NCBI GenBank assembly: GCA_014799325.1
Contig: JAAVIE010000027.1
Location: 1-50,697 of the forward strand
Direction of reading: 5' to 3'
Length of the DNA: 50,697 bases
Origin: Oscillospiraceae bacterium
GTDB lineage: Bacteria > Bacillota > Clostridia > Oscillospirales > Ruminococcaceae
Shown here: piece after piece, positions 8,826 to 47,494 of the stretch
Layout: each line of letters starts with the position of its first letter
How positions within the stretch are numbered: the stretch's first letter is position 1
Position numbers and translations under genes: made by a program
The notes under the pieces: generated by a model
The model's input: only the letters and a program-made list of their open reading frames with translations
What the model was told of the DNA's origin: nothing
Databases searched by the model: none

Positions 8826-8828
8826 ATA

Positions 8829-27159: not shown

Positions 27160-27190
27160 TCAAAAATTGAGCCGCATAAAACAAAGAATA
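27160..27190 (+). repeat. 31-bp conserved site, copy 1 (TCAAAAATTGAGCCGCATAAAACAAAGAATA)
   Basis: Direct repeat also found at 35639, 36168 and 47464. Confidence 0.9.
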
Positions 27191-27231
27191 GACTAACGTA
27201 TTTTTTGACTATAATATAAATCAATGCTTCT

Positions 27232-28113
27232 CTACTTAAAGGCTCTGTTTTTTCGGTACTCAGTCGGACTCTCCCCAAAACATTTACGAAAAATCTCCGC
27301 ATAGTAGCTCGCACCGCCAAATCCCGCCGATAAAGCGACCTCCGTGATCGACATATCATAACAGCACAACAATTCAAGACTTTTATTTAAACGATATTGA
27401 TTAAGATAAGCATTGGGACTTTGCCCTAAATATTTTGCAAATAATTTACAGCACTTACTTTGTCCCACGGCTCCGGACACGGCGATCTCCTCCAATGATA
27501 TCTTTCGGGAGTAATTCTTCTGAATAAAACCGATCATATCCTTAACAACCGTCAGATCGCTGCCGAAACGCTCTGCGGTATGCTCCTCCAATGGAAGATT
27601 TTCGTATAGCAGCGACCATATCGCCAAAAATGAGGACTGCACTTTAAGAGGCGCAGCGCTATCGTCTTTGCTTTGAACCATAAAGTGAATCTGCTCTAAA
27701 ACAGCGCGCTGCCAACCGATATCGGGATCAAGAAAAACAAACGATTTGGAACTGCGTATAACAGGCAGCACAAAATCACGCTCATAGGCGGGCGCAGCGC
27801 AAAGCAGCATAGGGTGTAGTATGATACAGTTAAAAATACATTCCGTCATAGTTGACGAAAACCCGAAATGCAGCTGCCGTGCGTTTACAAAAATACCCTC
27901 GCCCTTCCGCAGCCTTATAACCTCGCCGTTTACATTATAATCCATCTCGCCCTCTAAAACGGCGATCAGTTCAATATCGTCATGCCAATGACTGGGAGCG
28001 GCATAGTTTGGATAGTTTGAAAGAATCCCATGTCGGATATAGATAGGATAATCCGAGCTGTCATAATGTATCTTTTCGGAGCGGTCATCTTTCAGTTCGA
28101 TCAAGGCACTCAT
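27232..28113 (-). CDS. AraC family transcriptional regulator (cupin sensor)
   Basis: HWHDDIE cupin; C-terminal double HTH ending SITEVALSAGF...SPTEYRK. Confidence 0.93.
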   Translation of the reverse strand: MSALIELKDDRSEKIHYDSSDYPIYIRHGILSNYPNYAAPSHWHDDIELIAVLEGEMDYNVNGEVIRLRKGEGIFVNARQLHFGFSSTMTECIFNCIILHPMLLCAAPAYERDFVLPVIRSSKSFVFLDPDIGWQRAVLEQIHFMVQSKDDSAAPLKVQSSFLAIWSLLYENLPLEEHTAERFGSDLTVVKDMIGFIQKNYSRKISLEEIAVSGAVGQSKCCKLFAKYLGQSPNAYLNQYRLNKSLELLCCYDMSITEVALSAGFGGASYYAEIFRKCFGESPTEYRKNRAFK

Positions 28114-28271
28114 AAACCCTTCTCCTCGCAGGATTGTTATTGAAAAAAGCAGAAATCTGATAGAAATACAACAGATAATGTGATATTATCATATCATATA
28201 AAGAATAAATAATCAATCCGCTTTAATACAAAGAAACGATCGAACCGCAAACGTGATCCGGAGGCGCTTAC

Positions 28272-29462
28272 GTGGAAAATTTATTTCTCGCCTCCGTGAC
28301 GATCGGGCTTTCCATGTTTGCGGCGCAGTATTGGGGCAGTCGGGATATAGATTCAATGGAGAATGTTTTCGGCTATACAATGAAAGTCACACTGATCGTA
28401 TCAACGTTCTTTTTTCTTGTCGGACTGTGTATTCCCGATATACTCATGAGTCTTTTTACCAATGACACAGCTTTAATTGCTCACGGCTCTCTTTATCTGC
28501 GTGCGGTATCGGTATCTTTTCTGCTCACCGGTATTTCACAGATATATCTATGTACGCTGAAGAACAGCGGAAAAGTGTCAATAGCCGGATCGATAAGCTC
28601 TGTCTGTGTTGTTATCAACATTATCCTAAACGCAGTTTTTATTTTCGGGCTTTTGGGTTTCCCGAAAATGGGGATCGCGGGTGCGGCTTTGGCGACTGTG
28701 ATCGCACGTTTAGCGGAAGTAATGTGGTGTATTTTTGTGACCGCGAGGAAAAGTCAGGTAAAGCTGCATCTAAAGAAAATTATTACCTGCAATAAAGAAC
28801 TTCGCTCCGATTTTTGGAAACATACGGCTCCTGTTCTTGGCAATGAAATAGTATGGGGGATAGGATTTACAATGTACTCCGTTATCATGGGTCATTTAGG
28901 CAGTGATGCCGCAGCGGCGAACGCCATTGCCAATATTGCCAAAAACCTTGTTGCCTGCTTTTGCCTGGGACTTGGAAGCGGCAGCGGCATTATAATCGGA
29001 AATGAGTTGGGCGCAGGTCGGCTTGATTCGGCAAGGGAATACGGCAGTAAGCTTTGCAAGCTGTCAATTATATGCGGAGCGGTATCGGGAGTGTTTCTGC
29101 TCCTGCTTATTCCGTTTGTGCTTATGCTGACGGACTTGAGCCCACAGGCAAATACCCTCTTGAAAGGTATGCTTGTTATGTGTTCGTACTATCTGATAGG
29201 CAAGTCCGTTAATTCAACAACTATCGCGGGGATATTCTGCGCGGGCGGCGACAGCAAATTCGGTTTTTTATGCGATACGGTAACAATATGGTGCGTTACC
29301 GTTCCGCTTGGTTTTTTGGCAGCTTTTTTGTTTCATCTGCCCGTGCTTACGGTGTATTTTGTGATCAATCTGGACGAGATCATAAAACTTCCCGCTGTGT
29401 ACAGGCACTATAAAAAATATCTATGGGTTAAAAATCTGACTGTAAAGGAGAAATCAAAATGA
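28272..29462 (+). CDS. MATE family efflux transporter, apparently N-terminally truncated
   Basis: AQYWG, NIILNAVFIFG..G.PKMGIAGAALAT, GNELGAG; 396 aa, lacking the usual first TM segment. Confidence 0.8.
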   Translation: MENLFLASVTIGLSMFAAQYWGSRDIDSMENVFGYTMKVTLIVSTFFFLVGLCIPDILMSLFTNDTALIAHGSLYLRAVSVSFLLTGISQIYLCTLKNSGKVSIAGSISSVCVVINIILNAVFIFGLLGFPKMGIAGAALATVIARLAEVMWCIFVTARKSQVKLHLKKIITCNKELRSDFWKHTAPVLGNEIVWGIGFTMYSVIMGHLGSDAAAANAIANIAKNLVACFCLGLGSGSGIIIGNELGAGRLDSAREYGSKLCKLSIICGAVSGVFLLLLIPFVLMLTDLSPQANTLLKGMLVMCSYYLIGKSVNSTTIAGIFCAGGDSKFGFLCDTVTIWCVTVPLGFLAAFLFHLPVLTVYFVINLDEIIKLPAVYRHYKKYLWVKNLTVKEKSK

Positions 29463-30076
29463 GCAAAATGAAAGACAGACTTCATACGGGCGAGCTTTAT
29501 CTTCCCGGTGACGAAGAAATCATGACCGATCAAACCAAAAGGCTTGACCGGCTTTACGACTTCAATATGACCCGTCCCACAGAGGGCGAAAAACGCACCG
29601 CCATGCTGAAAGAAATGTTCGCCGAGATCGGCGAGGGCTGTTATGTAGAGCCTCCGCTGCACTCAAATTTCGGAGGCGGTCATGTGCATTTCGGAAAAGG
29701 GGTATATGCCAATTTCAACTTAACTCTGGTTGACGATACACACATCTATATCGGAGATTATACCATGCTCGGTCCCAACGTTACCATTGCCACGGCAGGA
29801 CACCCTATCTTGCCGGAGCTGCGTCAACAGGGTTATCAGTATAATATGTCCGTGCGCATAGGCAAAAACTGCTGGCTCGGCGCAGGAGTAATTGTTATGC
29901 CCGGAATTACTATCGGTGACAACGTGGTTATTGGAGCGGGAAGCATTGTGACTAAGGACATTCCCTCAAATGTCGTAGCAGTTGGCAATCCGTGCCGTAT
30001 TCTGCGCGAGGTTGGAGAGCATGACAGGGAGTACTATTTCAAAAACAGAAAGATCGATTATGATGCTTTGAAGTAA
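29459..30076 (+). CDS. Sugar O-acetyltransferase (maltose/galactoside, hexapeptide repeat)
   Basis: YVEPPLHSNFG, NFNLTLVDD, IGKNCWLG, GAGSIVTKDIP..VVAVGNPCR. Confidence 0.93.
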   Translation: MSKMKDRLHTGELYLPGDEEIMTDQTKRLDRLYDFNMTRPTEGEKRTAMLKEMFAEIGEGCYVEPPLHSNFGGGHVHFGKGVYANFNLTLVDDTHIYIGDYTMLGPNVTIATAGHPILPELRQQGYQYNMSVRIGKNCWLGAGVIVMPGITIGDNVVIGAGSIVTKDIPSNVVAVGNPCRILREVGEHDREYYFKNRKIDYDALK

Positions 30077-30081
30077 GACGT

Positions 30082-30618
30082 TTAATTTTTGATATCAAGA
30101 TAAAACAGAATATCGCTTTTGCCCTCCTGTGACGTGCCGGTATACACATGGGTATCCAATCCGCCGATAACAAAGCCGTTTTTCAGGTAGAATAAACAAG
30201 CGCCGAGATTATTGTCCTGTCCCTGCGTATATATTCCGAGGTAGCCCTGTTCAAGGGCTACCTCTTTTGATTTCTCTATCAGCATTGCGCCAATGTGCTT
30301 GTTTCTGTAATCCGAATTGACTTTCAGATCATACAGATACATATACTTAAAAAATGCCTGCTGCAATATCGCAAGTCCGATACATTTTTCATCGTCATAT
30401 GCGCCGACAAAGACGCTGTTTTCTGACAGCTCGGCATAATCGTAGTTTTCATCGGGAAAGCACATTTCCGAGATTTTATCTTCGGAAAAGAGTTCGGTTT
30501 TATAGTCCCATTTTCCGTCATTATAAGAGGGCTGCATCAATCCGAACAGTGAAAACGGCTGATTGGGAATGTTGATATCGGATTTGTGGTCATTATCGAT
30601 TATTTTTACGGTTATCAT
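30082..30618 (-). CDS. GNAT acetyltransferase, streptothricin acetyltransferase (Sat)-like
   Basis: DLKVNSDYRNKHIG, QDNNLGACLFYLKNGFVIGGLD..VY typical of the Sat-like GNAT clade. Confidence 0.75.
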   Translation of the reverse strand: MITVKIIDNDHKSDINIPNQPFSLFGLMQPSYNDGKWDYKTELFSEDKISEMCFPDENYDYAELSENSVFVGAYDDEKCIGLAILQQAFFKYMYLYDLKVNSDYRNKHIGAMLIEKSKEVALEQGYLGIYTQGQDNNLGACLFYLKNGFVIGGLDTHVYTGTSQEGKSDILFYLDIKN

Positions 30619-31126
30619 TATTTATTTGTCCTTTCTCAAAAATGCCGCCTTCAAAAAAGATGTCGTTTCCGTTTTCGTCTTTATGGAATGACAGCGTTTC
30701 CGTACCCGTCAAAACAAATCCCAACCTTTGCAGCAGCCTGCACGACGGTATATTTTTGAGCGCCGTTCCCGAAGAAAAAGCTTTAACGGCTCTTGTCCTT
30801 TCAATATGCTCCATTACTGCACTGCATGCCTCGCTTGCATAGCCCTTGCCTTTATAATCGGAATGAAAACAGTAGCCCAGATCGTAGATTCCATTATCCT
30901 CATGAAAGCATACATAACCTATCATACTTTTTTCAAGCATGACCGCAAAAAATAGGTGAGATTCGGCAAATTGCTTTGTCAGGGTCTTGATCTCCTCATC
31001 TTGTGCGGGCAGGGGCATATCGTACACTGCGTATTCCGACTTTTGAAAATCGGCGGCGATTCTCTGCATATCCTGCCAATCTTCCGAATTAAGCTCTCTT
31101 ATCAGTAATCTGTTTGTGTATATCAT
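30593..31126 (-). CDS. GNAT acetyltransferase (RimJ/RimL type)
   Basis: TNRLLIR, LGYCF...KGKGYASEA, NIPSCRLLQRLGF. Confidence 0.88.
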   Translation of the reverse strand: MIYTNRLLIRELNSEDWQDMQRIAADFQKSEYAVYDMPLPAQDEEIKTLTKQFAESHLFFAVMLEKSMIGYVCFHEDNGIYDLGYCFHSDYKGKGYASEACSAVMEHIERTRAVKAFSSGTALKNIPSCRLLQRLGFVLTGTETLSFHKDENGNDIFFEGGIFEKGQINNDNRKNNR

Positions 31127-31223
31127 ATGAAGTTTCCTTTTATGTATTGAGTCGTATTTTTAATCATTCCGTTAGATAATATCCACAACGCGGCAGCCTT
31201 ATTGCTGCCCTTAAATTTATTGC

Positions 31224-31257
31224 GGGCATTTCATAATATCACACGCGAAATGCCCGC
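31224..31257 (-). terminator. Hairpin downstream of the lipoprotein gene
   Basis: GGGCATTTC...GAAATGCCC inverted repeat. Confidence 0.45.
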
Positions 31258-31268
31258 TTAACACAGCA

Positions 31269-32051
31269 TTATTTCCGGCTCAACTCCACATCATCAATGT
31301 AATATGAAGTAATCGATTCAAATCCCGAATCGGTGCCGATAATAAGATACACTTCTCCGTTTTCATCTGCGGCGGCGCTGACGGTCAGTTCATATACATT
31401 GAAGTCATAGCCGTCGGGATTCATCTCGTCCTGCTTTGCAATAGTGCCTACAACGCTCATATCCTTTCCGCCCTCACCCTGATGACCGCCGTCTATATTG
31501 AGCCTGAAATGCCCATTGTCATCAACCGAATTTTCCGGTTTTACATTGGTGATCCCGCTTTTTACATAGACCGAATCTCCGGGAGAACCGCCGACACCAA
31601 ACATACCTCCGGGCACATTGGTGGCTATTTTGAACTTAATGCTGAATTCATACTTCTGACCGCCGACAAGTCCGTCTATTTTCTTGAAGTATCCCATAAA
31701 TAGATCATCACTGTGATTATTGCCGGAGATAAACAGCCCCTTGCCCGCTCCGGAGATCGGAATTTCTCCGTGTTCGTGCTTCATCTCGTAGAATTCTTCC
31801 ACATCTTCTGAATTTGGGTAATCGGAAAAGATCGGAACAAACCCGCAGTCGCCGTCCTCAAAATCGAATTTTAAAGCCGAGGGTTTGTTGTTATCATCCC
31901 TGCCGCTGTCCTTTTCAGATTCTGCAGGAGCGGAAGCTGCAGGAGTGGAAACTCCGTTTTTGTTGCCCGATTCGTTCTTTTGCTCGGAACACCCTGTAAA
32001 TGAGGCAGTAAGTACCGATGCGATCAAAAATAACAGAAAACCTTTTTTCAT
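31269..32051 (-). CDS. Lipoprotein of unknown function
   Basis: Signal peptide with lipobox FTGC, low-complexity linker, beta-rich domain with NNHSDDLFM. Confidence 0.8.
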   Translation of the reverse strand: MKKGFLLFLIASVLTASFTGCSEQKNESGNKNGVSTPAASAPAESEKDSGRDDNNKPSALKFDFEDGDCGFVPIFSDYPNSEDVEEFYEMKHEHGEIPISGAGKGLFISGNNHSDDLFMGYFKKIDGLVGGQKYEFSIKFKIATNVPGGMFGVGGSPGDSVYVKSGITNVKPENSVDDNGHFRLNIDGGHQGEGGKDMSVVGTIAKQDEMNPDGYDFNVYELTVSAAADENGEVYLIIGTDSGFESITSYYIDDVELSRK

Positions 32052-32098
32052 TTTTTGTTCCTCCTTGTTATAGATGTTTTGTTTTAGGTTTCTGTATA

Positions 32099-32854
32099 TT
32101 AGATGCGGTTACGTTTCCGTTTTGTTGGCAATTTATCGGAAAAATTTAAAAAAATTATGAAAGCGGCGACAGACAGCAGCATCAATGCTCCGAATATAAT
32201 AAGCCACGGTGAAATTACTGCGGGCTCCGGGTCAAATTCCATAGAACCCATTTGACCATCTTCCGGTGCGTTTGAAATATATTTGACAAGGTTATACCCA
32301 AAGCCGGCTCCGAAAAAGAGAATAAAGCATGCAATCGCACCGAGCGCGCGGCGAAGCTTTTTGATAGACGTATTGTATATCCATTGAACCGTGCCGATAG
32401 GAATTGACATAATCTTTGAAATTTCTTTGTGCGTCATACCGCCAAGCATTTTCAACGAAACTATCTGTTTTTGCTTATCATTAAGTGATGCCGTCATAGA
32501 ATCAAACGCGTCAATATCAACAAAATCCTCGATCTCAAGGTCTTGCTCGGGAAGCTCCTGCACTTCATCAAGAGGAACAGTCTTCTTTTCCTTGCGAAGA
32601 TGCATGAGCGCTTCATTTTTTACGACCGTATGAAGCCATGCTATCTCATGATCGTTTGGGAACAGCCGCTCCTCCATTGTATATAGCCTCAGCATTACAT
32701 TTTGGATAACATCATAACAATCGCTCTCGTTATTAAGTACGGAGTAAGCAGTACCGAACATAAAACGAAAATATTTGTTATAAAGAATATCGAAACCCTC
32801 CGATTTGCGCTGTTTTATAAGCAGTAGTGTATTTTTTATTTCATTTTGATTCAT
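32099..32854 (-). CDS. ECF sigma factor with C-terminal two-TM extension
   Basis: Regions 2 and 4 (DVIQNV, AWLHTVVKN, THKEISKIMSIPIGTVQW) followed by two hydrophobic helices; AAGGAGG RBS before MNQNE. Confidence 0.85.
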   Translation of the reverse strand: MNQNEIKNTLLLIKQRKSEGFDILYNKYFRFMFGTAYSVLNNESDCYDVIQNVMLRLYTMEERLFPNDHEIAWLHTVVKNEALMHLRKEKKTVPLDEVQELPEQDLEIEDFVDIDAFDSMTASLNDKQKQIVSLKMLGGMTHKEISKIMSIPIGTVQWIYNTSIKKLRRALGAIACFILFFGAGFGYNLVKYISNAPEDGQMGSMEFDPEPAVISPWLIIFGALMLLSVAAFIIFLNFSDKLPTKRKRNRI

Positions 32855-32946
32855 GTTTATACACCTCCTTCTACTTATAAGATGCAGCAAAGTTTACGAT
32901 TTGTTGGCGAAAATTTGATTTTCAAAAAAAAAAACATTTTAACTGC

Positions 32947-33348
32947 TTAATCGTCCTGAGGCTTATTTTCCGTATCGTAAAAGTCCTTTTCATACTTGTA
33001 GCCCCAATTCATCATAGCATAAAAGATCGGATACAGATCGCGGCCCTTTTCGGTAAAGGAATATTCAACGTGCGGAGGTATCTCGTTGAACTGCTCCCGG
33101 TGAACGATCCCTTTTGCTTCCAGATCCTTAAGTGTAGCGGTAAGCATTGTATTGGTCACACCCGGAAGCTCTTTTTTTAATTCTCCGAAACGAATATGAT
33201 CGTAAATGCACAGAACATAAAGCACCTGATCCGTCCACTTTCCCTGAAACAGCGTCAGCGCAGGTGTGACGGGGCAGTTGCCGGATTCCGTTACGATACC
33301 TTTCTTGACCTGATCCAAAAAATCGTTATAGTTCATCATCTGTTCCAT
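32947..33348 (-). CDS. HxlR family transcriptional regulator
   Basis: CPV, GKW, RFGELKK, MLTATLKDLE, PPHVEYSFTEKG. Confidence 0.92.
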   Translation of the reverse strand: MEQMMNYNDFLDQVKKGIVTESGNCPVTPALTLFQGKWTDQVLYVLCIYDHIRFGELKKELPGVTNTMLTATLKDLEAKGIVHREQFNEIPPHVEYSFTEKGRDLYPIFYAMMNWGYKYEKDFYDTENKPQDD

Positions 33349-33474
33349 AGGTATTCTCCTTATAGTAAGTTTTTTCATACTATATATGATTTTTCTGCGT
33401 ACTTGACACGTTTTTCAGATAAAGTATAATAAATATACCAACAAATGTCAAGCACTTTTCGGGAGGAATTTCAA

Positions 33475-34950
33475 ATGGATAAAAATGTGATATATGAGCT
33501 TTTTAAAGAAAAGGTAAACGAAGCGCCAAACGCGGCCGCCGTATTTGATGAGAAACGAAGTCTTACAAGAAAAGAATTTGATATGCTTATCGACACTATC
33601 GCATCGAAAATACCCGCAGCAGCTCGCAGGGTCGGAATTATTATGGATCACACCGTTGAAATGATCGCTGCCATTTTTGCCGTTCTTAAAGGCGGGAGAG
33701 CATATATTCCCGTTGAGCCGTTCTTTCCTCATGAGAGAATCGATTTTATGATGAATGATGCAAACACAGACCTTATACTTACAAACAGCATTTACAAAGA
33801 AAAGATCAGCGGATTTCCCTGTGTGTTTATCGACCCCGGCATGGAGATCCAAAATGTTTCGGTAGAGCAAACGGCATTGCCGGACGATCTCGCTTACATT
33901 TTATATACATCGGGGTCAACGGGCGCTCCAAAGGGCGTAGCGGTACGGAACCGCAACGTCTGTCACTATGTAAGGGCGTTTCAAAACGAATTTCACCCGA
34001 ATGAAACGGATACAATGCTTCAATATTCTGTCTGTTCATTCGACATTTTTGTTGAAGAAGTATTTACAACACTTCTGTCGGGTGCCGCGCTTGCGATACC
34101 GTCCGCAAAAACAAAAGAAAAAATTCATACTCTTATGGATTTTGTTGAGAAAAACAATGTTACCGAGATCAGCGGTTTTCCCTATCTTCTGCTTGAAATG
34201 AATCATCTGCCGAGTATTCCCGAATGTATTAGACTGCTGATCAGCGGCGGTGATGTGCTTCGCGCAAGCTATGTCACAAATTTGCTTGACAAGGCAGAAA
34301 TTTACAACACCTACGGACCGTCCGAAACAACGGTATGCGCCTCGTATTTTAGATGCAATGATACCATTCCTCTTCAGGACGAAACCTATCCGGTAGGCAA
34401 ACCCGTTTTGGGAACGCAGATAGAGATCTTGAACGAGCATATGGTTCCAGTAAAACCGGGTGAGATCGGGGAAATATGTATTCTCGGAGACGGTGTTTCG
34501 GCGGGATATACAGGCAGCAGAAAAAGGGAAAACGAAGCCTTTGTTACACGTAAGGACGGTTCTGTTGTATACCGCAGCGGCGATCTCGGATATTTTCTCC
34601 CTAACGGAAATATTGCTTTTTTACACCGCAAGGATTCGCAGATCATGATTTTGGGGAAGCGGGTCGAGCCTATTGAAGTCGAAAGTGTACTATGCAAATG
34701 CCCGGAAATTGAAAAGGCAGTCGTCAGACCGTATACAGATGAAAAAAATCTGTCTTATATGGTGGCTTATGTGGTTTTAAAACAGCCCGACACAAATCTT
34801 TCAACGCTGAAAAACGAAATGGCAAGATTTCTGCCCAATTATATGAAACCGGAATTTTTTATCAGAATGACCGATATTCCGTTAAACGCCAACGGTAAAT
34901 TGGACATCAAAGCCCTGCCCGTAATTATGAAGGAAGGGGGCGTTGCTTAA
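33475..34950 (+). CDS. Stand-alone amino acid adenylation (NRPS A) domain protein
   Basis: LAYILYTSGSTGAPKG (A3), FDIF (A4), NTYGPSE (A5), GEICILG, YRSGD, NGKLD (A10); no PCP domain. Confidence 0.9.
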   Translation: MDKNVIYELFKEKVNEAPNAAAVFDEKRSLTRKEFDMLIDTIASKIPAAARRVGIIMDHTVEMIAAIFAVLKGGRAYIPVEPFFPHERIDFMMNDANTDLILTNSIYKEKISGFPCVFIDPGMEIQNVSVEQTALPDDLAYILYTSGSTGAPKGVAVRNRNVCHYVRAFQNEFHPNETDTMLQYSVCSFDIFVEEVFTTLLSGAALAIPSAKTKEKIHTLMDFVEKNNVTEISGFPYLLLEMNHLPSIPECIRLLISGGDVLRASYVTNLLDKAEIYNTYGPSETTVCASYFRCNDTIPLQDETYPVGKPVLGTQIEILNEHMVPVKPGEIGEICILGDGVSAGYTGSRKRENEAFVTRKDGSVVYRSGDLGYFLPNGNIAFLHRKDSQIMILGKRVEPIEVESVLCKCPEIEKAVVRPYTDEKNLSYMVAYVVLKQPDTNLSTLKNEMARFLPNYMKPEFFIRMTDIPLNANGKLDIKALPVIMKEGGVA

Positions 34951-35409
34951 ATGGATATTGCCGTCAAACGGGCTTCCGTCAATGAGATCGATAAGCTGAT
35001 GGAGTGGAGAATGGGGGTGCTGCAAAATGTATTTGATATTTCTGCGGCAAATAATAATTCAAGCCTTTACGCCGCAAATCGGGAGTATTATCTGGAAAAG
35101 ATACTAAGCGGAGAACATATTGCGGTATTTGCCGAGAACGATGGCATGACAATGGGCTGCGGCGGACTTTGCCTATACAGGGAAATGCCCTCGCCTGACA
35201 ATCCGACTGGTCGTTGTGCATATTTGATGAATGTTTATACAAAAAAAGAATACCGTAGACAAGGCATAGGAAAAACTGTTGTAAAATGGCTTGTGGAATA
35301 CGCAAAAGAACAAGGTATTACCAAGATATATCTTGAAACCTCCGAGTGCGGCCGCCCGCTGTATGAAGGGCTTGGCTTTAAGAATATGTGTGATTACATG
35401 AAGATATAG
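34951..35409 (+). CDS. GNAT acetyltransferase
   Basis: YLMNVYT..EYRRQGIG, GRPLYEGLGF; abuts the A-domain stop codon. Confidence 0.88.
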   Translation: MDIAVKRASVNEIDKLMEWRMGVLQNVFDISAANNNSSLYAANREYYLEKILSGEHIAVFAENDGMTMGCGGLCLYREMPSPDNPTGRCAYLMNVYTKKEYRRQGIGKTVVKWLVEYAKEQGITKIYLETSECGRPLYEGLGFKNMCDYMKI

Positions 35410-35887: not shown

Positions 35888-35906
35888 GGGTGCAGCGTCA
35901 CGCTGC

Positions 35907-39643: not shown

Positions 39644-42121
39644 TTATACACATTTAAAGTTCGATTTATTAGTCTCAGCAAATAGCCAAGCACACACCGC
39701 CCCCGCAATCTCAACAAGCACAACACCCCATAGCAAGAATTTAGAAACACCCCCATTCTCACCCAACAAAAGCGGCATACCCTCAACTCCAATGATATAT
39801 GCAAACGGCTTAAGAATTTGAATACCCATATAAGCATACAACAATGAAGGCAGCAGCATTATACCGCAAGCCGCAGCGTATGCAAGCTCCATTCGCTTTA
39901 TAAGAGATGAAATCAGTAACACGACTATTGCTCCGCACATAAGCACCAACAGCCGATACGCATATAAAATTATCAGCCAGCCTCGTATTGAACAATATAT
40001 CGGGAACTCGGACAACATAGACAGATTCTGAACTGCGATATCCCATTCCGAAATATCGAACTTGGTCATTAAAACATACAGTTCCCGTCCGTAAACAACC
40101 ACCCAGACCGCCGCCGATACGATCACCGACAGCAATATTTTCCTAGATAGAAGTACACCGCGTCCTCGAACAGTCGAGCTTGATAAAAATGTTATATTAG
40201 AGCGGCGTTCACACACCATACTGCCCGCAAGCAGCAGAGTCAAAGCAAGAACCGCAATAATCGCGGCACGGTGCTGATTATTTTGTGCCGCTGTTCCGTA
40301 CACACTTTCAAACGGTGTTTCGTCAATCAGCCACGGAGTAAATTCTTTATCCACACCGTTCGTTTTGAGTTCATTGACACGAGTTCTTACCCTGTCAAGA
40401 CCCTCCTTGCTGCTCCTTGCGGCAGCTTCATCACGGGCAAAAAGATTTAGTTGTGACTTGGTGATTTTTCCGTTTTCATAGTCTATCTTCGCTTGTTCAT
40501 ACTCAGATATTGCTTTGTCAAGCTGTTCCATTATGGAATCTATTTTTGAAAAAGATTCATCTGTGATCTCACCGGATAATTCGCCGATATATTTTTGTTC
40601 GGCGACCTCTGCGGCAGAAAATAGCGGAATATTTGCAAAAAATGGAAGTTTGAAAACCACATAGACAAACAAAGCAAAAATTACAATGCCTTTTTGAATC
40701 CACAAAGTTTTATACGTTTCCGTTCCGAGAAGTCCAAAGCGGCACAGCACCTTATCTGTTATACTTCTTATGCAATAAGCTATCTTCCCTAAAATATCTT
40801 TACCGCCGGCAGGCTTTTTCTTACAGTAAATAAAAACACACACGTCAGCCAGACATATACACATAGGGAACAACGCGAATTGCGAAATATTTCGTATTCC
40901 AAACGGAAAACCGAATAAATTGATATTCAAATAATTCGTATACAGATCGGACAGACTTATGTAGGTGAATAAATTAAAATACTTCAATCCATTCCATACG
41001 CTTTGCACGGGCAGAAATGTATACAAGCTGTATTCTACAGCCAACAACATAGCCGCAATAATAATTGAATATTTTACATTGTTGACTGCCGAAAGCAGCA
41101 GCCAAAACAACAAGCCGATAAAGAACGATGCTAATACCCGTAAAATCAGATAGTAAATCATAAAGCTTCCCACGGAACACGGCATAGGCAGCTTGCCGAG
41201 GATTTCAACCGATTGTACTGTACGCGCCAGATCGTCAATTCCGCCGTAAACGGAAAATCCTATTGCAAGATTTGTACCGTAAAGCAGCAGAACACCGCCA
41301 AATGATACACCAAACAAAATAACCGTTCTTTGCAAAGCAAGACTAGCTCGTCCACACGGCGCAGCGTGAATAATCCCTGCAAGACCCGCTTTGCGTTCCT
41401 CGAAAAATGACATAACGATCATCAGCAGAACGGCGATCATAAAATAATCCGTAAGCGAAAAAGACATAAACGAGTTGACCGCTCCGTCCGCACCCAACGA
41501 CAATGAAACACCGCGCATCTTTTCAAATTCATCGGCAGTCTTGACAATGTTTCTGCCCGAAAAACTGTCAGACTCAAACAAAGAAAACATCTGCATATTT
41601 TCTTTATTTCTTTGAATAGAGTTTAGCCAATTGTCATATCCCGTTAAATAATCGGCGTTGATAAGCAAATTATTTACAGCGATATAATCAAGCTCGGCTG
41701 CGGAAATATCAAATTCACCGTTTTCGATCTGCCGTAATAATTCGGGTTGAGTTATTCGGTAATCATCAAGCGAATTGCCGATCCCTACGAAATTATTTTC
41801 GTTTTCTATAAGATCGGCTATCCTTAAAATATCGGTAAGCCTGGATTTTTCCTGGTTCAGCATCGACACCGCATCATTTAACGGCACTTCCTTTGTTTTA
41901 TCAAGCCAACTCAAATAGCTTTTATATGCCGCTTGGGGTTTAATTCCATTATCGGGAATTTCGTTATCAAAAACGGTTATTACCGCATTTGGCAAGGTCA
42001 AGTCCAAGCCGTAATTCTGCGAAATTTGCTCACGAACAAATAAAAATCCGTTTACTAAAATTATCAATAACAACCCGATCAGAAGACGGTGGTTTGATAA
42101 AATGCGTTTCAGTTCCATCAT
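39644..42121 (-). CDS. Large ABC permease-like membrane protein (two fused ABC-2-type halves)
   Basis: Two repeats of TM + extracellular domain + EERKAG/CERRSN...GR motif + 5 TMs; follows the ABC ATPase. Confidence 0.75.
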   Translation of the reverse strand: MMELKRILSNHRLLIGLLLIILVNGFLFVREQISQNYGLDLTLPNAVITVFDNEIPDNGIKPQAAYKSYLSWLDKTKEVPLNDAVSMLNQEKSRLTDILRIADLIENENNFVGIGNSLDDYRITQPELLRQIENGEFDISAAELDYIAVNNLLINADYLTGYDNWLNSIQRNKENMQMFSLFESDSFSGRNIVKTADEFEKMRGVSLSLGADGAVNSFMSFSLTDYFMIAVLLMIVMSFFEERKAGLAGIIHAAPCGRASLALQRTVILFGVSFGGVLLLYGTNLAIGFSVYGGIDDLARTVQSVEILGKLPMPCSVGSFMIYYLILRVLASFFIGLLFWLLLSAVNNVKYSIIIAAMLLAVEYSLYTFLPVQSVWNGLKYFNLFTYISLSDLYTNYLNINLFGFPFGIRNISQFALFPMCICLADVCVFIYCKKKPAGGKDILGKIAYCIRSITDKVLCRFGLLGTETYKTLWIQKGIVIFALFVYVVFKLPFFANIPLFSAAEVAEQKYIGELSGEITDESFSKIDSIMEQLDKAISEYEQAKIDYENGKITKSQLNLFARDEAAARSSKEGLDRVRTRVNELKTNGVDKEFTPWLIDETPFESVYGTAAQNNQHRAAIIAVLALTLLLAGSMVCERRSNITFLSSSTVRGRGVLLSRKILLSVIVSAAVWVVVYGRELYVLMTKFDISEWDIAVQNLSMLSEFPIYCSIRGWLIILYAYRLLVLMCGAIVVLLISSLIKRMELAYAAACGIMLLPSLLYAYMGIQILKPFAYIIGVEGMPLLLGENGGVSKFLLWGVVLVEIAGAVCAWLFAETNKSNFKCV

Positions 42122-42128
42122 AAGCAGC

Positions 42129-42989
42129 TTAATCTCCGAGATAATAAAGATAAACGTCATCAAGCGTTAAGTGTTCGGTTACATATTCTCCGTCCTCCGG
42201 CAGATCATCACCAACTAGCCGCACCCAAACTTGTCCGTTGCGTTTTCGCACATTTCCGACCTTGTAACGCTCTTGCAAAATCGCTGTATCTCCGTCAAAC
42301 GGCAGTTCAATTACTTTTCCTCGAACGTTATCCAACAGATTTTCAGAAGTATCCATACCGACAATATGTCCGCTTTTTATCATTAAAATTTTATCGGATA
42401 TGGATTCAATATCACTTACAATATGAGTAGCAAGCAAAATAATTCGGTCGTTTGATATTTCCGAAATAAAATTTCTTATACGAATTCGTTCTTTTGGATC
42501 AAGACCCGCAGTAGGTTCATCGAGAATAACGACCTTTGGATTGCCAAGCAGTGCCTGCGCTAAAAGTACGCGCTGCTTCATACCGCCGGAAAATCCGCCA
42601 ACCCTCTTGTGACGAACGTTCGCCAAATTTGTAATTGTCAGCAGATTTTCAATTTCGATTTTTGCTTGCTTTTTCGGAACCGCTTTCAGCTCTGCCATAT
42701 AATACAAAAATGTTTGAGCAGTCATATGATTGTAAAATCCTTGCTGCTGCGGCATATAACCAAGCACACGGCGAAAATCCTTGCCGAGCTTCAGAATATC
42801 AACACCATCAAATAAAATTGATCCGTCCGTTCTTGAAATATTATCGGTAAGAAGATTCATCATCGTGCTTTTTCCTGCACCGTTTGCACCGAGAATACCA
42901 TAAATACCCGGAGTGAATTTCACGCTTATATGATCAAGCGCAGTCATTCCGCCGTATTTCTTTGTTAAATCTTTAAGCTCAAGCTGCAT
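42129..42989 (-). CDS. ABC transporter ATP-binding protein
   Basis: GANGAGKST, FSGGMKQR, ILDEPT, ATH. Confidence 0.95.
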   Translation of the reverse strand: MQLELKDLTKKYGGMTALDHISVKFTPGIYGILGANGAGKSTMMNLLTDNISRTDGSILFDGVDILKLGKDFRRVLGYMPQQQGFYNHMTAQTFLYYMAELKAVPKKQAKIEIENLLTITNLANVRHKRVGGFSGGMKQRVLLAQALLGNPKVVILDEPTAGLDPKERIRIRNFISEISNDRIILLATHIVSDIESISDKILMIKSGHIVGMDTSENLLDNVRGKVIELPFDGDTAILQERYKVGNVRKRNGQVWVRLVGDDLPEDGEYVTEHLTLDDVYLYYLGD

Positions 42990-43002
42990 ACTTCCCTCCG
43001 AA

Positions 43003-44364
43003 TTATCCTACCTGTATCCAATACTCGTGATCTTCCGGTTCAAAATTCACAGCGGCACCAGGCCATGTGTCAACCTCTCTGAACCGTCCGTTTACCCAAT
43101 CGATCTGATATAACGCGGAGGACGGGCTCATAAATGTTTTGTGATACGCAAGCAAAAATACGCTGTCTCCATCGGCAAATATCAAATCACTGCCCACTAT
43201 ATCGGAATATGTTTGATAAATTGATGACAGGTCGATATTTGCCTTTTTAGCGCCGCCGAAATCAAAAGTCATGATCTCTCTGCCGTTAGCGCTTAATATA
43301 ATAATGTTTTCATCGGTAAACGCTGCCGTGCCGCCGTTTGTATTTCCCGATAACGAAATTTTTTCGGAATTTCCCGAATTCAGATCAATGTTCCAAAGCT
43401 CATTTCCAGATGCGTAATAGTAAAGCTTGCCATCCATAATATACCACGAGGCGTTATCGGACGTGGAACTAACGATCTGCGACGAACTCCATATTTTTCG
43501 CGTATTTGCCGAGTTTTCACCCAACCAATACAACGAATCGTGCTCATCGCCATTATTGTCCATATAGCGGTTCATTGCATAAGCGTTTTCACCGTCTGCC
43601 CAGAACTTCCACTCGGAAGTTTGGTGCATATCTTCCGGTTCACCGTCAATAAGCTTAACGGCATTTTCCACTTTCTGCCCCAAGCTAACTCGATAAACGC
43701 TGTGATCACGTTCCATAAAATAAATGGTACTGTTCACGAAAACAGGATCGGCACAATTGACGCTCCAACTTGGTTCCGATATCTGAATTACCTGCACGTC
43801 GGTATGATCTGTGCCGTCTAAATTCATTGAACAAAGCGTTTTATAGCTGTTGTGGATTGCGTCGCCGTTTACATAATACAGCTTACCATCATAATAGCTC
43901 AAAAGTTTTGAATTGATCCATGCGTTGCAATCAACATCATTGTGCGAACACTCCGGTTTTCCGCATACAACGATCATTCTTCCGAGTTCGTTGTCAAAGA
44001 AATACAATAAGCCCTCATTCTGCAAATAGTAACCTTTTTCCGTTTTGCAAGCGGTCGGCAGACGTAGCAGAGAATTTATATTCATATTTCTTTGAAATCC
44101 GCTTAAATCCAACTCCGTCTTGTCTTCACCCAAATTATCAACGGACGGGACAGAAGAATTATTTTGATCTATATAGTTGCTTGTGCTATTTTGCAATCCA
44201 TCACCAACAGAAGAACTATTTTGCGAATTGGAACTGTTGTTTGCATTGATCCACCCGTCATTCACGACGGAAGACGTGTCTTCAGTACCGCTGTTTGGAA
44301 CGTTTGTAGCTTGACAGCCTGATAACAATAAAACTGCTACACAAAAAATAAAAATCTTTTTCAT
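43003..44364 (-). CDS. Lipoprotein, probable beta-propeller
   Basis: Lipobox LLSGC, Ser/Asn linker, CGKPECSH..DCNA motif, repeated DGKLYY strands. Confidence 0.8.
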   Translation of the reverse strand: MKKIFIFCVAVLLLSGCQATNVPNSGTEDTSSVVNDGWINANNSSNSQNSSSVGDGLQNSTSNYIDQNNSSVPSVDNLGEDKTELDLSGFQRNMNINSLLRLPTACKTEKGYYLQNEGLLYFFDNELGRMIVVCGKPECSHNDVDCNAWINSKLLSYYDGKLYYVNGDAIHNSYKTLCSMNLDGTDHTDVQVIQISEPSWSVNCADPVFVNSTIYFMERDHSVYRVSLGQKVENAVKLIDGEPEDMHQTSEWKFWADGENAYAMNRYMDNNGDEHDSLYWLGENSANTRKIWSSSQIVSSTSDNASWYIMDGKLYYYASGNELWNIDLNSGNSEKISLSGNTNGGTAAFTDENIIILSANGREIMTFDFGGAKKANIDLSSIYQTYSDIVGSDLIFADGDSVFLLAYHKTFMSPSSALYQIDWVNGRFREVDTWPGAAVNFEPEDHEYWIQVG

Positions 44365-44374
44365 AAAAATCCTC

Positions 44375-45049
44375 CTAAATGGTGTTAGTTTTTTCGTTGA
44401 TACGATACCCTATTGTGAAATATGTTCCTCTATCGGAACAGTTTTCAATTGTAACAACATATTCGCCGTCTGTGTCTGCCTCAAAAAACAATTCACCTTT
44501 GCCTATTATGTGATCCTCCATATATTTTCCTGTTTTCAGGTCGGTGAGGGCTATTTTTATATTGGTAAGCTTTTGCTCACAATCCACATTAAACGTGACG
44601 CAGCTGCCTTCAGTAAGTGTCGCCTTACGGTAATCTATTTTCATGCCCGCTTCTATTTCTCCATGAGCTTGACCGTCGCTTTTAAGTTCGAGAAGTTCGT
44701 CAATAATTTCGACTTCTCCTGCTTCTAAAGCATCATTACCGGGTTTGCTGTTGGAATCGCTCGGATTATTTTTGTCGTTATTGATTGGCAGGAAATTAGT
44801 CTCATTACTTTCGGTATTTGAGGAGGTAGTTGCATTTGTTTGGGAATTATTGCTTTCACTTTCAGCACTAAAATGAATTTTATCCGATGTGCTTCCCATA
44901 ATGATCGGATTATCTTCATTTCTGTTTTCACTTAAAACATCAGAATTAATGTCAGTGCTCCCATTCAATTCGTTATTCGACATTTGACAACCCGAAATCA
45001 TAATGATTGCTGCATATCCAAGCACAATAGGTAAAATCGTTTTTTTCAT
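44375..45049 (-). CDS. Lipoprotein of unknown function
   Basis: Start MKKTILP after GGAGG; lipobox ISGC; low-complexity linker and C-terminal beta domain. Confidence 0.78.
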   Translation of the reverse strand: MKKTILPIVLGYAAIIMISGCQMSNNELNGSTDINSDVLSENRNEDNPIIMGSTSDKIHFSAESESNNSQTNATTSSNTESNETNFLPINNDKNNPSDSNSKPGNDALEAGEVEIIDELLELKSDGQAHGEIEAGMKIDYRKATLTEGSCVTFNVDCEQKLTNIKIALTDLKTGKYMEDHIIGKGELFFEADTDGEYVVTIENCSDRGTYFTIGYRINEKTNTI

Positions 45050-45109
45050 AAAGCCCTCCATAATACAATCGGGATATAGGAAAATCCCTATATCCCGATT
45101 ATAAATTAC

Positions 45110-45131
45110 AAATCTCATATATTTCTCAAAT
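45110..45131 (-). promoter_or_regulatory. Response regulator box (TCTCA x2, 11-bp period) upstream of the lipoprotein-ABC operon
   Basis: AAATCTCATATATTTCTCAAAT, 21/22 identical to 47204-47225; -10 TATAAT at 45098-45103. Confidence 0.75.
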
Positions 45132-46511
45132 TGTGCGAATTTTTATAGAAATTTTTGCACCACCCTTTTCTCCATTGTCCAAGCGAATATTCCCGCCTAG
45201 CTTTTCTGCAAGTAAGCTGCTGATATATAATCCCAATCCAAAGTGAGGTGATGTTCCGCTTCCCGTTTTTTCGCCTCGATAATATGCAAGTGCAGCATTT
45301 TCCAGATCTTTTTCTGTGAATCCTTCTCCATCATCTTCAACAGTGATCATAATATATTTCTGTTCTTGACATATTTGCACAATAATTTTTTCCTTTGCAT
45401 GACGTGCGGCATTGGATAGAACATTTTCACAGATTTGAGCCAATGCCCCTTTATCTAAATTCAGGTTTTGCTCATCCAACTCGGAAATAATCTCTGTTTT
45501 TCCGTTCAGAAACAACATCGCTGCCGTTTCCGATATCATTCCTGTTATTTCGGAAGATGAAACGCTTTTGTAGCAAGGCTCGTAGTCCTCTAACCTCTGT
45601 AATGTTCCCATAGTGTCGGTAAATTTATTAAGACGCACGATTTGATCGGATATTTCATTGACAAAGCCTATAGTCTCTCCACCATTCGCATTATTCCCAA
45701 CATTATCAAGGAGCAAATCAATATATCCTCTTATAACGGTAAGCGGAGTTCTTAAATCGTGGGCAAATGCGGCGTTCAGCCTTTTACGTTCCTCTATCGA
45801 ATTCCACATTTTACAATTGCTTTTAACCAATTCCTGCCGCATAACTTCAAATGCTTGGCACAAGCGCCCAAATTCATCTTGACTCTCATAATTGATTTGG
45901 AAATTCAGATCATTTTCCGATATCTTTTGAACAGCCGCATTCAAAATGCGAAAGGGCCTTTTTATTTTCCATAAATAAAACACCAGTGCGGCTGCGACAA
46001 GGCAAACTGAGTACCACAAAATTGCCGCTATACCGTTGAGCCACGAAAAGAAATCGTATCTTTTCTGATCTTCTTCCAACAAGCTATATCTGACTATATG
46101 CTCGTCCGTGTTTATCGGAACAACCGTTGCAGGAAAATCAATAAATTCGCTTTCATTTAAATTTGTGCCGTATTCAATATTATTTTGTATATTAAAACCG
46201 ATCAAATCACCTGAAGTAAGTTGATCTTCATCGGATGAATTGTTTTCCGGAGGAATATATTCAAATCCAATATCACCATTATTTATATTGTTATCATCAC
46301 CTAAAATTGCAAAAAACTCAGAATTATCCGTTGGTATTATTTTTACTATTTCATCGGATTTATATTTGTCTATAATATCATTAAGCTTTTCTTCCGCTAA
46401 CCATATCGTTGCTTTAGTCGAACCGAATGCGGCAAGAATACAGCAAAGCGCACATATTATAAATGCCGCAGGAAGCGGAATACCACACAGCCATTTCTTT
46501 ATCCTACCCAT
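45126..46511 (-). CDS. Sensor histidine kinase
   Basis: Two TMs, HAMP, FAHDLRTPL, NVLSNAARHA, DDGEGF, HFGLGLY. Confidence 0.95.
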   Translation of the reverse strand: MGRIKKWLCGIPLPAAFIICALCCILAAFGSTKATIWLAEEKLNDIIDKYKSDEIVKIIPTDNSEFFAILGDDNNINNGDIGFEYIPPENNSSDEDQLTSGDLIGFNIQNNIEYGTNLNESEFIDFPATVVPINTDEHIVRYSLLEEDQKRYDFFSWLNGIAAILWYSVCLVAAALVFYLWKIKRPFRILNAAVQKISENDLNFQINYESQDEFGRLCQAFEVMRQELVKSNCKMWNSIEERKRLNAAFAHDLRTPLTVIRGYIDLLLDNVGNNANGGETIGFVNEISDQIVRLNKFTDTMGTLQRLEDYEPCYKSVSSSEITGMISETAAMLFLNGKTEIISELDEQNLNLDKGALAQICENVLSNAARHAKEKIIVQICQEQKYIMITVEDDGEGFTEKDLENAALAYYRGEKTGSGTSPHFGLGLYISSLLAEKLGGNIRLDNGEKGGAKISIKIRTI

Positions 46512-47179
46512 TTATAGCCTACCCCCCAGATCGTTTCTATACAACTTTCTATTCCCGCTTTAGCGAAAGTGAGTCGTATTCTGCGAATATGCTCCATAAT
46601 TACGGTATCGTCGCCCTCACCATCAATTCCCCATACACGGTCGTATATTTTGGCACGTTCAAATACCTGACCACGATTTAATGACAGAAGCTGAATTATA
46701 TCAAAGTCCTTTTTGTTGAAGAATAATGCCTCTCCCCGAACAAATATTTCCCTTGATGAATAATCGATCGTTATATCACCGAAAATCTTCCGCTGAATAT
46801 CCTTGTTGCGTCTTTCACGGCGCAAATGTGCTTTAATTCGTGCGCCAAGCTCTGTAAGCGAAAATGGCTTTACAATGTAATCATCACCACCTGCGCTGAA
46901 GCTTTCAACCTTATCCTCATCGCTGTCTCTAGCAGTCAAAAATATGATAGGACAGGAAACAAATTCTCGAATTGATTTGCAAACCTCGATCCCGTCCATC
47001 TGTGGCATATTGATGTCAAGTAATATCAGATCCGGTTGCTGCCTTGACTTCTGTATAGCGGCTGTTCCGTCTAATGCACAGCTTACTTGATACCCTTCAC
47101 GCTGTAAAAAATTTTGAAGCATTGTTATGACCTTTTTTTCATCATCAACGACTAAAATACGATATGACACTGTAGACAC
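46499..47179 (-). CDS. OmpR/PhoB family response regulator
   Basis: VVDDE, LDINMP, DDYIVKPF, ETIWGVGY; GAGGAG RBS. Confidence 0.95.
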   Translation of the reverse strand: MSTVSYRILVVDDEKKVITMLQNFLQREGYQVSCALDGTAAIQKSRQQPDLILLDINMPQMDGIEVCKSIREFVSCPIIFLTARDSDEDKVESFSAGGDDYIVKPFSLTELGARIKAHLRRERRNKDIQRKIFGDITIDYSSREIFVRGEALFFNKKDFDIIQLLSLNRGQVFERAKIYDRVWGIDGEGDDTVIMEHIRRIRLTFAKAGIESCIETIWGVGYKWVG

Positions 47180-47203
47180 CTCCTCAATTTTATTTTAATG
47201 CGA

Positions 47204-47225
47204 AAATCTCATATTTTTCTCAAAT
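47204..47225 (-). promoter_or_regulatory. Response regulator box upstream of the RR gene (autoregulation)
   Basis: AAATCTCATATTTTTCTCAAAT; -10 TAAAAT at 47192-47197. Confidence 0.75.
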
Positions 47226-47463
47226 ATTATGTTCTTCTGCATAATATAGCATATTTTTTCACATCTTTTTATTAAAATTTTACCAATAAAGGTTCACAAA
47301 TGTTACTTACGTATTGTCTCAAATTCTAAAATAGTTACAGCTACCAAAACGTGTTTTGGAGTTACGTAATTATCTGGTTTATATAATATGGAATGATACA
47401 GTTCTGCATACGTTTCCTCACTTTTTATAATTTGCAACCAATAGTCTGAATAACTCGGTTTTT

Positions 47464-47494
47464 TCAAAAATTGAGCTGCATAAAACAAAGAATA
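47464..47494 (+). repeat. 31-bp conserved site, copy 4 (TCAAAAATTGAGCTGCATAAAACAAAGAATA)
   Basis: Direct repeat family; about 45 bp from the stop of the DUF6076-like gene. Confidence 0.9.

What the first reader, a model, noticed from the sequence alone, without database searches (positions are those of the whole stretch)
27160..47494. Four direct copies of a 31-bp site bracket two cargo blocks: possible site-specific cassette system
Seen: TCAAAAWTTGAGYYGCWKWAAACAAAGAATA occurs at 27160, 35639, 36168 and 47464, always intergenic and in the same orientation. Copies 1-2 enclose the AraC-to-GNAT block. Copies 3-4 enclose all the cargo of the integrative element, between att and the DUF6076/xis/int core. 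Flanks pair the left-hand copies (TG before, GAC after: 1 and 3) and the right-hand copies (TT before, (C)GGCA after: 2 and 4). The variable centres pair differently (1 with 4, 2 with 3). Inference: conserved arms around a variable centre, at about the size of a tyrosine-recombinase site, suggest dif-like or integron-like sites through which cargo is captured and swapped independently of att integration. I do not recognise the motif as a described site.
Basis: partly seen in the sequence, partly recalled or inferred. Interest (0 to 1): 0.85.

Follow-up and report, generated by a model that had tools for sequence, protein, structure and literature searches.

The report
Gene-swapping joints in gut-bacterial islands
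A 31-base DNA site recurs, always facing the same way, at the joints between the gene blocks of a family of mobile islands in gut Clostridia, and related islands swap what lies on either side exactly at it, so it is likely a cassette-exchange site of a kind I did not find described, probably cut by the islands' own integrases (untested).

Summary
The four copies are real (0 in 100 shuffles). They belong to a family of 268 distinct sites in gut Clostridia of the window's order, found in 41 of 301 genomes.

The sites lie in and around islands that split tRNA-Pro at its anticodon loop and usually carry a whole spare tRNA. The island core is xis, HTH_36, an oriT-like motif, optional RHH/MobP3 and DUF6076, and two intact tyrosine integrases.

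All 64 multi-site loci have the sites in one orientation. Homology between related islands stops at the site. Filled and single-site (empty) versions exist, and gene-sized defence and transport cassettes end close to the sites. Sites abut gene ends rather than starts, which argues against a regulator-binding site.

The site is not the host dif (a different palindrome sits beside the host's single Xer gene), not an attC hairpin and not the island's oriT. DUF6076 is dispensable and shows no recombinase fold. The enzyme is unidentified; the islands' integrase pair is my best guess.

One correction: copies 1-2 are remains of an older nested island, and cargo 1's right end is a deletion scar, not a site. 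No reads or circles could be examined.

The parts
27126..27159 (+). remnant of the flank that follows the second integrase (IntB) in intact islands; marks an older, core-less island
   Evidence: 88-89% identical to post-IntB flanks of L142 and L018 and to C7 and C22 of the own genome
27160..27190 (+). 31-bp site, copy 1
27191..35481 (.). cargo 1: AraC, MatE, maltose acetyltransferase, 2 GNAT, hypothetical, ECF sigma, HxlR, AMP-binding, GNAT, and a 23-codon ORF start cut off at the right end
   Evidence: Pfam; part of the block is 83-88% identical to G001:C14, where it lies between xis and a site
35482..35638 (+). tail (positions 34-190) of a hairpin-rich non-coding segment that is site-flanked in 15 other cases; its own left site and first 33 nt are deleted here
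35639..35669 (+). 31-bp site, copy 2
35670..35906 (.). module normally downstream of the island-borne tRNA (hairpins, terminator-like stem), plus a 95-bp repeat (35814-35908) also found on C3, C7, C56 and C93
35907..35951 (-). 3' half (33-77) of tRNA-Pro(CGG); att core = 7-nt anticodon loop at 35945-35951
35952..36167 (.). att arm region of the younger island, with a direct arm-type repeat at 36069-36085
   Evidence: the arm-site role is inferred
36168..36198 (+). 31-bp site, copy 3
36199..47463 (.). cargo 2: low-GC DitA-DitB-like defence pair (36743-39296), then ABC transporter, lipoprotein and two-component system; no internal site
   Evidence: PADLOC E 1e-201 and 1e-93, Pfam, GC
47464..47494 (+). 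31-bp site, copy 4
47540..48727 (-). DUF6076 protein (optional in the family; no recombinase fold found)
48891..49094 (+). xis-like HTH (TIGR01764, just under the cut-off)
49102..49542 (+). HTH_36 protein
49579..49591 (-). oriT-like nick motif, single copy; RHH and MobP3 genes are not found here
   Evidence: in 22 of 35 HTH_36-downstream spacers; resembles the MOBP nick consensus given in PMC3772185; function inferred
49889..50697 (+). IntA tyrosine integrase, cut by the contig end; IntB is expected beyond
   Evidence: 83% identical to IntA of L048

Best explanation
The 31-bp motif is a directional joint at which related tRNA-targeting islands of gut Clostridia differ in what lies on either side, and it is likely a site-specific recombination site through which modules are excised and inserted as circles, probably by one or both of the islands' two tandem tyrosine integrases. 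Shown: the site, its single orientation, its fixed places (inside both att ends, on both sides of the core, between cargo blocks), homology breaks at it, filled and empty versions, and two integrases with intact catalytic motifs. Inferred: crossover inside the variable middle (about positions 8-16) with tolerance of mismatches there, as known for IntDOT; excision between two direct copies and insertion of a one-site circle at a resident copy. Islands entering through the tRNA att nest inside earlier ones, which brings many sites together for shuffling. Least certain step: the enzyme (about 0.8 that it is a recombination site; about 0.55 that the island's integrases act on it). How foreign genes first acquire sites is unexplained.
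For: 268 distinct sites; 0 of 64 multi-site loci with mixed orientation; 0 hits in 80 shuffled loci. 321 of 1840 internal alignment ends lie within 10 nt of a site edge in both sequences. With the site masked, 289 of 372 site pairs with a homologous flank are homologous on one side only. One flank at least 80% identical with the other unrelated: 130 of 241 pairs at sites, against 0-21% at seven control landmarks. 33 left-shared and 24 right-shared pairs at 85-100% flank identity switch at the site edge. 100 closed segments of 107 bp to 12.3 kb; a 190-310-bp segment sits between two sites in 15 cases and is absent, leaving one site, in L072, L053 and L001. Gene stops lie within 60 bp of a site in 92 of 246 cases, starts in 18 of 153. 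Cassettes encode AbiE, SEFIR, AbiL-like, GmrSD, Fic, MatE and chromate transporters. Whole cores are site-flanked and occur in tandem (L018/L019, L040). IntA and IntB both keep R...HxxR...H...Y. A site scoring 20 or more lies in 38 of 49 IntB loci across most clades (many of these loci were chosen for having a site). Right-half-only sites are joined to foreign DNA at about position 14/15 (L136, L158, L260, L273).
Against: No enzyme link is shown. The site profile is not significantly similar to the island's att core (570 and 633 of 1000 shuffles score as well). The same site occurs in islands with unrelated single integrases (23-40% identity) at tRNA-Trp, -Thr and -Met, which would need action in trans. 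11 of 49 IntB loci, including both tRNA-Val islands, show no good site. The arms are not inverted repeats and an invariant GC sits mid-centre, unlike most tyrosine-recombinase sites. Linkage does not place the crossover cleanly: position 17 follows the right flank and 3-5 the left, while 13 and 14 disagree. One control landmark, the IntA start, breaks as often as the site (131 of 204). Many junctions are ordinary deletions away from sites, including the right end of cargo 1. No gene cassette was found bounded by sites in a clearly different order, all filled/empty comparisons are between species, and pairs are not independent.
Confidence: 0.55

Rival explanations
1. It is a recombination site, but the enzyme is another trans-acting recombinase (from a helper conjugative element or an unrecognised host protein) shared by islands with different integrases.
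For: The site is shared by islands with unrelated integrases. There is no significant likeness to att. It is largely confined to one host order (41 of 301; 3 of 401 phylum-wide with a stricter pattern).
Against: No such gene is enriched among the commonest protein clusters of the site loci. The site was not found in viral contigs, and plasmid and phage records gave only chance-level hits.
Confidence: 0.15
2. It is a relaxase-type nick site; transfer that starts at one copy and ends at the next makes circles and joins modules.
For: The strict direct orientation, the conserved right half with a laxer left half, and the right-half-only joints near 14/15 fit a single-strand nick. Relaxase recombination between direct oriT cores has precedent (PMC4902927, abstract).
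Against: The islands have a separate single oriT-like motif before RHH/MobP3 (22 of 35 spacers). The site's likeness to it is not significant (214 of 1000). The bases that would precede the nick (17-19) vary, and no conserved hairpin flanks the site.
Confidence: 0.12
3. It is a plasmid-type dif site used by the host's single Xer recombinase (pdif/IMEX-like).
For: Its size is like difSL (31 bp; PMC5357621, passages). A single-copy Xer-like gene is in 59 of 61 genomes of the order, so it would be available to all islands.
Against: A different 30-bp palindrome lies beside xer in 19 of 34 loci (3 of 170 shuffled), and its half-site profile scores the 31-mer at a mean of -10 or less. In one-contig G017 the only two copies are in the island, and none lies in 320 kb around the skew switch and xer.
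Confidence: 0.07
4. It is a protein-binding or structural site kept by selection; the breakpoints come from homology-driven deletion or crossover between 31-bp repeats after islands accrete in tandem.
For: Nested and tandem islands are common, and many deletions fall away from sites.
Against: This does not explain how unrelated cargo genes come to end within 60 bp of a full site on both sides, nor four or five copies per island.
Confidence: 0.08
5. It is a transcription-factor operator.
For: It is intergenic in 219 of 232 cases, and positions 1-11 are a near-palindrome.
Against: It lies near gene stops rather than starts, with no fixed distance to starts. It is absent from most genomes of the genus and order and sharply marks breakpoints.
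Confidence: 0.03

Closest known systems
pdif sites and dif modules of Acinetobacter plasmids (PMC13141974, passages)
   Same: Short asymmetric sites bracket gene-sized accessory modules and also the backbone; the centre varies; modules are lost between directly oriented sites.
   Different: pdif is XerC arm, 6-bp spacer, XerD arm and resembles the host dif; neighbouring sites alternate in orientation. Here no multi-site locus has inverted sites (0 of 64), the site does not match the host dif candidate, and it lives in tRNA-integrated islands.
Integron cassette arrays (attC/IntI)
   Same: Direct, same-orientation sites with compact genes ending next to them, and defence and stress cargo.
   Different: No attC-type hairpin or covariation; no IntI; genes face both ways; the site also flanks the integrase core and the att ends. 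The attC features are recalled.
XerS/difSL and XerH/difH single-recombinase systems (PMC5357621, passages)
   Same: About 31 bp and asymmetric.
   Different: difSL and difH are imperfect inverted repeats, single copy, next to the recombinase gene. That description fits the palindrome beside the host xer gene, not this multicopy island site.
IME accretion and cis-mobilizable elements; 'Tyr duo' IMEs MTnPi1-3 (PMC5704250 and PMC9585547, passages)
   Same: Integrative mobilizable layout, tandem and nested arrays, two tandem tyrosine recombinases.
   Different: In the passages read, the repeats between units are the att sites themselves. A second, att-independent internal site and a carried replacement tRNA were not seen there.
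IntDOT of CTnDOT (PMC2817482, abstract)
   Same: Precedent for an arm-binding tyrosine integrase that tolerates mismatches in the overlap, as the variable centre here would need.
   Different: It acts on element ends with arm sites; no arm repeats were seen at the cargo joints here, and no sequence relationship was tested.

Membership tests
pdif / dif modules | site resembles the host chromosomal dif | tested here: not met
   the candidate host dif is a different palindrome; its half-site profile does not score the 31-mer; the candidate's identity as dif is itself inferred
pdif / dif modules | adjacent sites in inverse orientation (C and D modules alternate) | tested here: not met
   0 of 64 multi-site loci mixed
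pdif / dif modules | accessory modules bounded by sites and shuffled at them | tested here: met
pdif / dif modules | recombination by host Xer | not testable with these tools
   needs an assay
Integron | IntI integrase with the integron-specific insertion | tested here: not met
   IntA and IntB score 37 and 56 bits on TIGR02249 against a cut-off of 265; they carry Phage_int_SAM_3 domains
Integron | attC sites fold into single-strand hairpins | tested here: not met
   8 of 8 strands of the four window sites fold no better than shuffles (z -1.5 to +1.7); no complementary covariation across 268 sites
Integron | direct sites bracketing compact gene cassettes | tested here: met
XerS/difSL-type | single-copy imperfect inverted repeat next to the recombinase gene at the terminus | tested here: not met
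   multicopy, asymmetric, none near xer or the skew switch in G017
MOBP oriT (nic) | (C/T)ATCCTG(C/T) nick core with an adjacent inverted repeat | tested here: not met
   the core is absent from the 31-mer; a nearer match lies in the HTH_36-RHH spacer
Integrative mobilizable element (the carrier) | integrase plus relaxase, no mating-pore genes, att ends | tested here: met
   relatives have IntA/IntB, MobP3 (NF041499) and tRNA att ends; no mating-pore family among the 45 commonest clusters (not searched separately); the window's copy lacks the relaxase
Integrative mobilizable element (the carrier) | excision and transfer shown | not testable with these tools
   no run was listed
Tyrosine-recombinase core site | conserved arms around a 6-8-bp exchangeable centre, crossover inside it | tested here: inconclusive
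   arms and variable centre are present, but the crossover is only bracketed between about positions 5 and 17

The most novel reading that the evidence does not exclude
A third kind of natural gene-cassette platform besides integrons and pdif modules: islands that use one tyrosine integrase system to enter tRNA genes (splitting them and supplying a spare) and a second activity at a short, hairpin-free, arm-independent 31-bp site to swap defence genes, cargo, their own core and even their att ends as interchangeable cassettes across a whole order of gut Clostridia.
Probability: 0.35. Interest if true: 0.9.

Novelty: new variant of a known kind. Interest (0 to 1): 0.74.

Why it matters
Integrons and pdif modules are the textbook cassette systems and are known mostly from Gram-negative bacteria (recalled). 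A short-site cassette system in abundant gut Clostridia would explain how these poorly studied bacteria shuffle phage-defence and stress genes, and why their tRNA-Pro islands are mosaics. It is directly testable with a two-site reporter and three or four candidate proteins. A new 31-bp site and recombinase pair could also serve as a genetic tool for Clostridia. By-products: a candidate dif site for this order and a candidate MobP3 nick motif.

Tried and rejected
Host dif or Xer as actor: no site near xer or the skew switch. A scan for a canonical XerD arm in the G017 terminus gave only scattered weak hits (motif recalled).

DUF6076 as recombinase: model pLDDT 88; no Foldseek match at E 0.001 or below; best VIA Z 8.2 to generic helical bundles; Atlas hits were DUF6076 only. 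A missing match does not exclude a fold. DUF6076 was not found with this query in several site-bearing cores (L122, L046, L077, L153, L157).

Likeness of the site to att core, tRNA or oriT, noticed by eye ('TT-N5-GC'; 'GCAG..ACAAAG'): not significant against column shuffles (one search was a failed first attempt).

attC or RNA structure: searches were negative.

Viral contigs gave 0; plasmid and phage hits were chance-level.

A replacement motif in site-less islands: none found. The IntB tree is the quick tree only.

Literature: ten full-text searches showed no description, and DUF6076 occurs in 0 papers. The 31-mer itself was not searched as text, no supplements were read, and subscription journals are mostly missing.

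Two notebook counts are corrected here: G017 has four stacked 5' halves, not five, and the oriT-like motif is in 22, not 23, of 35 spacers.
Full report
Observation. The pattern occurs four times in the window, on the + strand, intergenic, with 0 matches in 100 shuffles. The repeat finder returns the same family. The genome holds nine copies on five contigs, beside tRNA-Pro, DUF6076 or integrase remnants.

Spread. A degenerate pattern hit 121 loci in the species-genome collection before the scan stopped (about 200 estimated); the record titles are mostly gut Clostridia (Oscillospiraceae, Acutalibacteraceae, Ruminococcus-type). It matched 6 of 41 relatives and 41 of 301 genomes of the order, with 0 for the reversed control. 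A stricter pattern matched 3 of 401 genomes phylum-wide, but it caught only 5 of the own genome's 9 copies. Viral contigs gave 0. An iterated profile over loci L001-L161 and L248-L287 and five own contigs gave 268 distinct sites (197 distinct 31-mers), 0 hits in 80 shuffled loci, and no mixed orientation in 64 multi-site loci. Conservation is sharp at both edges: TCAAAAWTTG, four variable bases, GC, three variable bases, ARACAAAGAWWA. The left part is laxer in distant members.

The carrier. The commonest proteins near sites are two tandem tyrosine integrases (IntA, IntB), DUF6076, HTH_36, xis, an RHH protein and a MobP3 relaxase. Both integrases keep the catalytic motifs. The order is: tRNA 3' half, arm region, site, cargo, site, DUF6076, xis, HTH_36, (RHH, MobP3), IntA, IntB, site, further segments each closed by a site, an intact tRNA, arm region, tRNA 5' half. 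The halves share only the 7-nt anticodon loop (52 5'-half junctions, 26 3'-half junctions, 38 whole tRNA-Pro). The island therefore splits the tRNA and usually brings a whole copy (inferred). Stacked 5' halves (four in G017) record repeated nesting. A single oriT-like motif lies after HTH_36 in 22 of 35 spacers and resembles the MOBP nick consensus (PMC3772185, passages). The window keeps this motif, but RHH and MobP3 are not found there.

The window re-read. Copies 3 and 4 are the att-side and core-side sites of the younger island, enclosing a DitAB-like defence pair and an ABC/two-component block. Copies 1 and 2 lie beyond the tRNA 3' half and belong to an older island. Copy 1 keeps about 35 bp of post-IntB flank. 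Copy 2 has the usual non-coding segment on its left and the tRNA-downstream module on its right. Cargo 1 is joined into that segment at its position 34, so a site and 33 nt appear deleted. Part of cargo 1 is 83-88% identical to a block in G001 that lies between xis and a site, there also trimmed by deletions.

Evidence for exchange at the site. Alignment ends pile up at the site edges. With the 31 bases masked, 215 pairs share only the left flank, 74 only the right and 83 both (156 loci, 239 sites, 15 overlapping loci dropped). Where one flank is at least 80% identical, the other is unrelated in 130 of 241 pairs. At control landmarks the figures are 0/14, 1/14, 2/40, 0/20, 7/33, 4/128 and 37/180, but 131/204 at the IntA start. 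57 pairs at 85-100% flank identity switch at the edge. These pairs are not independent. Of 100 closed segments, 15 are versions of one 190-310-bp hairpin chain that is missing, with one site left, in L072, L053 and L001. Others are one to three genes with stops close to a site. Of 72 proteins scanned with Pfam and 25 with PADLOC (chosen from 114 ORFs of the short segments, plus core and window proteins), many are defence, transport or stress genes. Whole cores are site-flanked and tandem, and intact attP-like stretches lie between two sites in L021, L023, L031 and L048; tandem att integration could also produce those.

What it is not. Not an operator: stops abut it (92 of 246 within 60 bp) far more than starts (18 of 153). 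Not the host dif: a single Xer-like gene is in 59 of 61 genomes. In G017 that gene sits where cumulative GC skew peaks, and a 30-bp palindrome lies beside it in 19 of 34 loci (3 of 170 shuffled), unlike the 31-mer. Not attC: no folding, no covariation, no IntI. Not the island's oriT. DUF6076 is optional and its model matched no recombinase.

Mechanism. I commit to site-specific exchange of circles at a double-stranded core-type site, most likely by IntA and/or IntB. They are the only recombinases that regularly accompany it (38 of 49 IntB loci score 20 or more, biased by selection), two active integrases leave room for a second job, and an asymmetric site suits two different subunits. Mismatch tolerance in the centre has precedent in IntDOT (PMC2817482, abstract). 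Against this stand the lack of significant likeness to att, sites in islands with unrelated integrases, site-less IntA/B islands, and an unmapped crossover. An outside recombinase or a relaxase (precedent PMC4902927, abstract) remain live rivals.

Known systems and papers seen. It works like pdif modules (PMC13141974, passages) and integron cassettes (recalled) but fails their defining tests. Passages were read in PMC5357621, PMC5704250, PMC9585547, PMC8138268, PMC6907783, PMC5313138, PMC3772185, PMC13141974 and bioRxiv 10.64898/2026.01.13.699239; abstracts only for PMC2817482 and PMC4902927; no supplements were read. Ten searches showed no description of the site or of DUF6076; that is weak evidence of absence. 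Earlier AI notes on tRNA-Pro 5'-half stacks in other phyla were not tested and are not support.

Verdict. The feature is real, widespread in one order and very likely a recombination joint (about 0.8). The enzyme and the origin of cassettes are open. New variant of a known kind, possibly a new cassette platform; interest 0.74.

Noticed in passing
G000:C82 (L218 about 959-988); also L171-L174, L224, L227, L228, L234-L238, L240, L243-L247: A 30-bp palindrome with varying inner arm bases lies beside the single-copy Xer-like gene in 19 of 34 loci; in G017 the gene sits at the GC-skew switch. Candidate dif (or autoregulatory site) for this order.
   Followed up: partly
window 35907-35951; C8 366-442 and 613-651; L123 5667-6526: The islands split tRNA-Pro at the anticodon loop and carry a whole replacement tRNA 150-250 bp inside; 5' halves stack up (four in G017). 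Not seen in the papers read.
   Followed up: partly
window 35482-35638; L018, L036, L041, L142 and others (alignment A2): Site-flanked non-coding segment made of a chain of small hairpins with modular presence and some compensatory changes (10 of 33 pairs); longer versions hide a degenerate extra site. Function unexplained (oriT-mimic or terminator array?).
   Followed up: partly
window 49579-49591: Conserved MOBP-like nick motif after HTH_36, kept in islands where RHH and MobP3 are not found: candidate oriT-only hitch-hikers and candidate MobP3 nic.
   Followed up: partly
window 36743-39296: DitA-DitB-like anti-phage pair, GC about 0.31.
   Followed up: partly
window 35814-35908; C3, C7, C56, C93: A 95-bp repeat that also lies next to tRNA genes on C56 and C93, sometimes in tandem.
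   Followed up: no
L007 10327-11748 (-) and relatives: IntB has a C-terminal stretch similar to the N-terminal arm-binding region; many decayed islands keep only this tail next to a site.
   Followed up: partly
G000:C104 13716-15760: A 2-kb decayed core (DUF6076, xis, IntB tail) flanked by two sites with no tRNA found on the contig.
   Followed up: no
L010, L087, L102, L024, L027, L106: Sites in records titled Deferribacteraceae, Bacteroides, Muribaculaceae and Prevotella: mis-binning or transfer across phyla.
   Followed up: no
window 9602-12642 versus L075: A two-component block far from any site in the window has 64-70% identical homologs directly beside a site in L075.
   Followed up: no
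window 531-733, 8771-8987, 15452-15580, 16369-16486: Other repeats: AT-rich 11-bp-period tract, long inverted repeats, paired 36-bp palindromic repeats, and a 12-bp coding repeat in the SbcD-like gene.
   Followed up: no
G000:C7 12483-19912: A separate tRNA-Gln island with another integrase and a resolvase-like gene.
   Followed up: no
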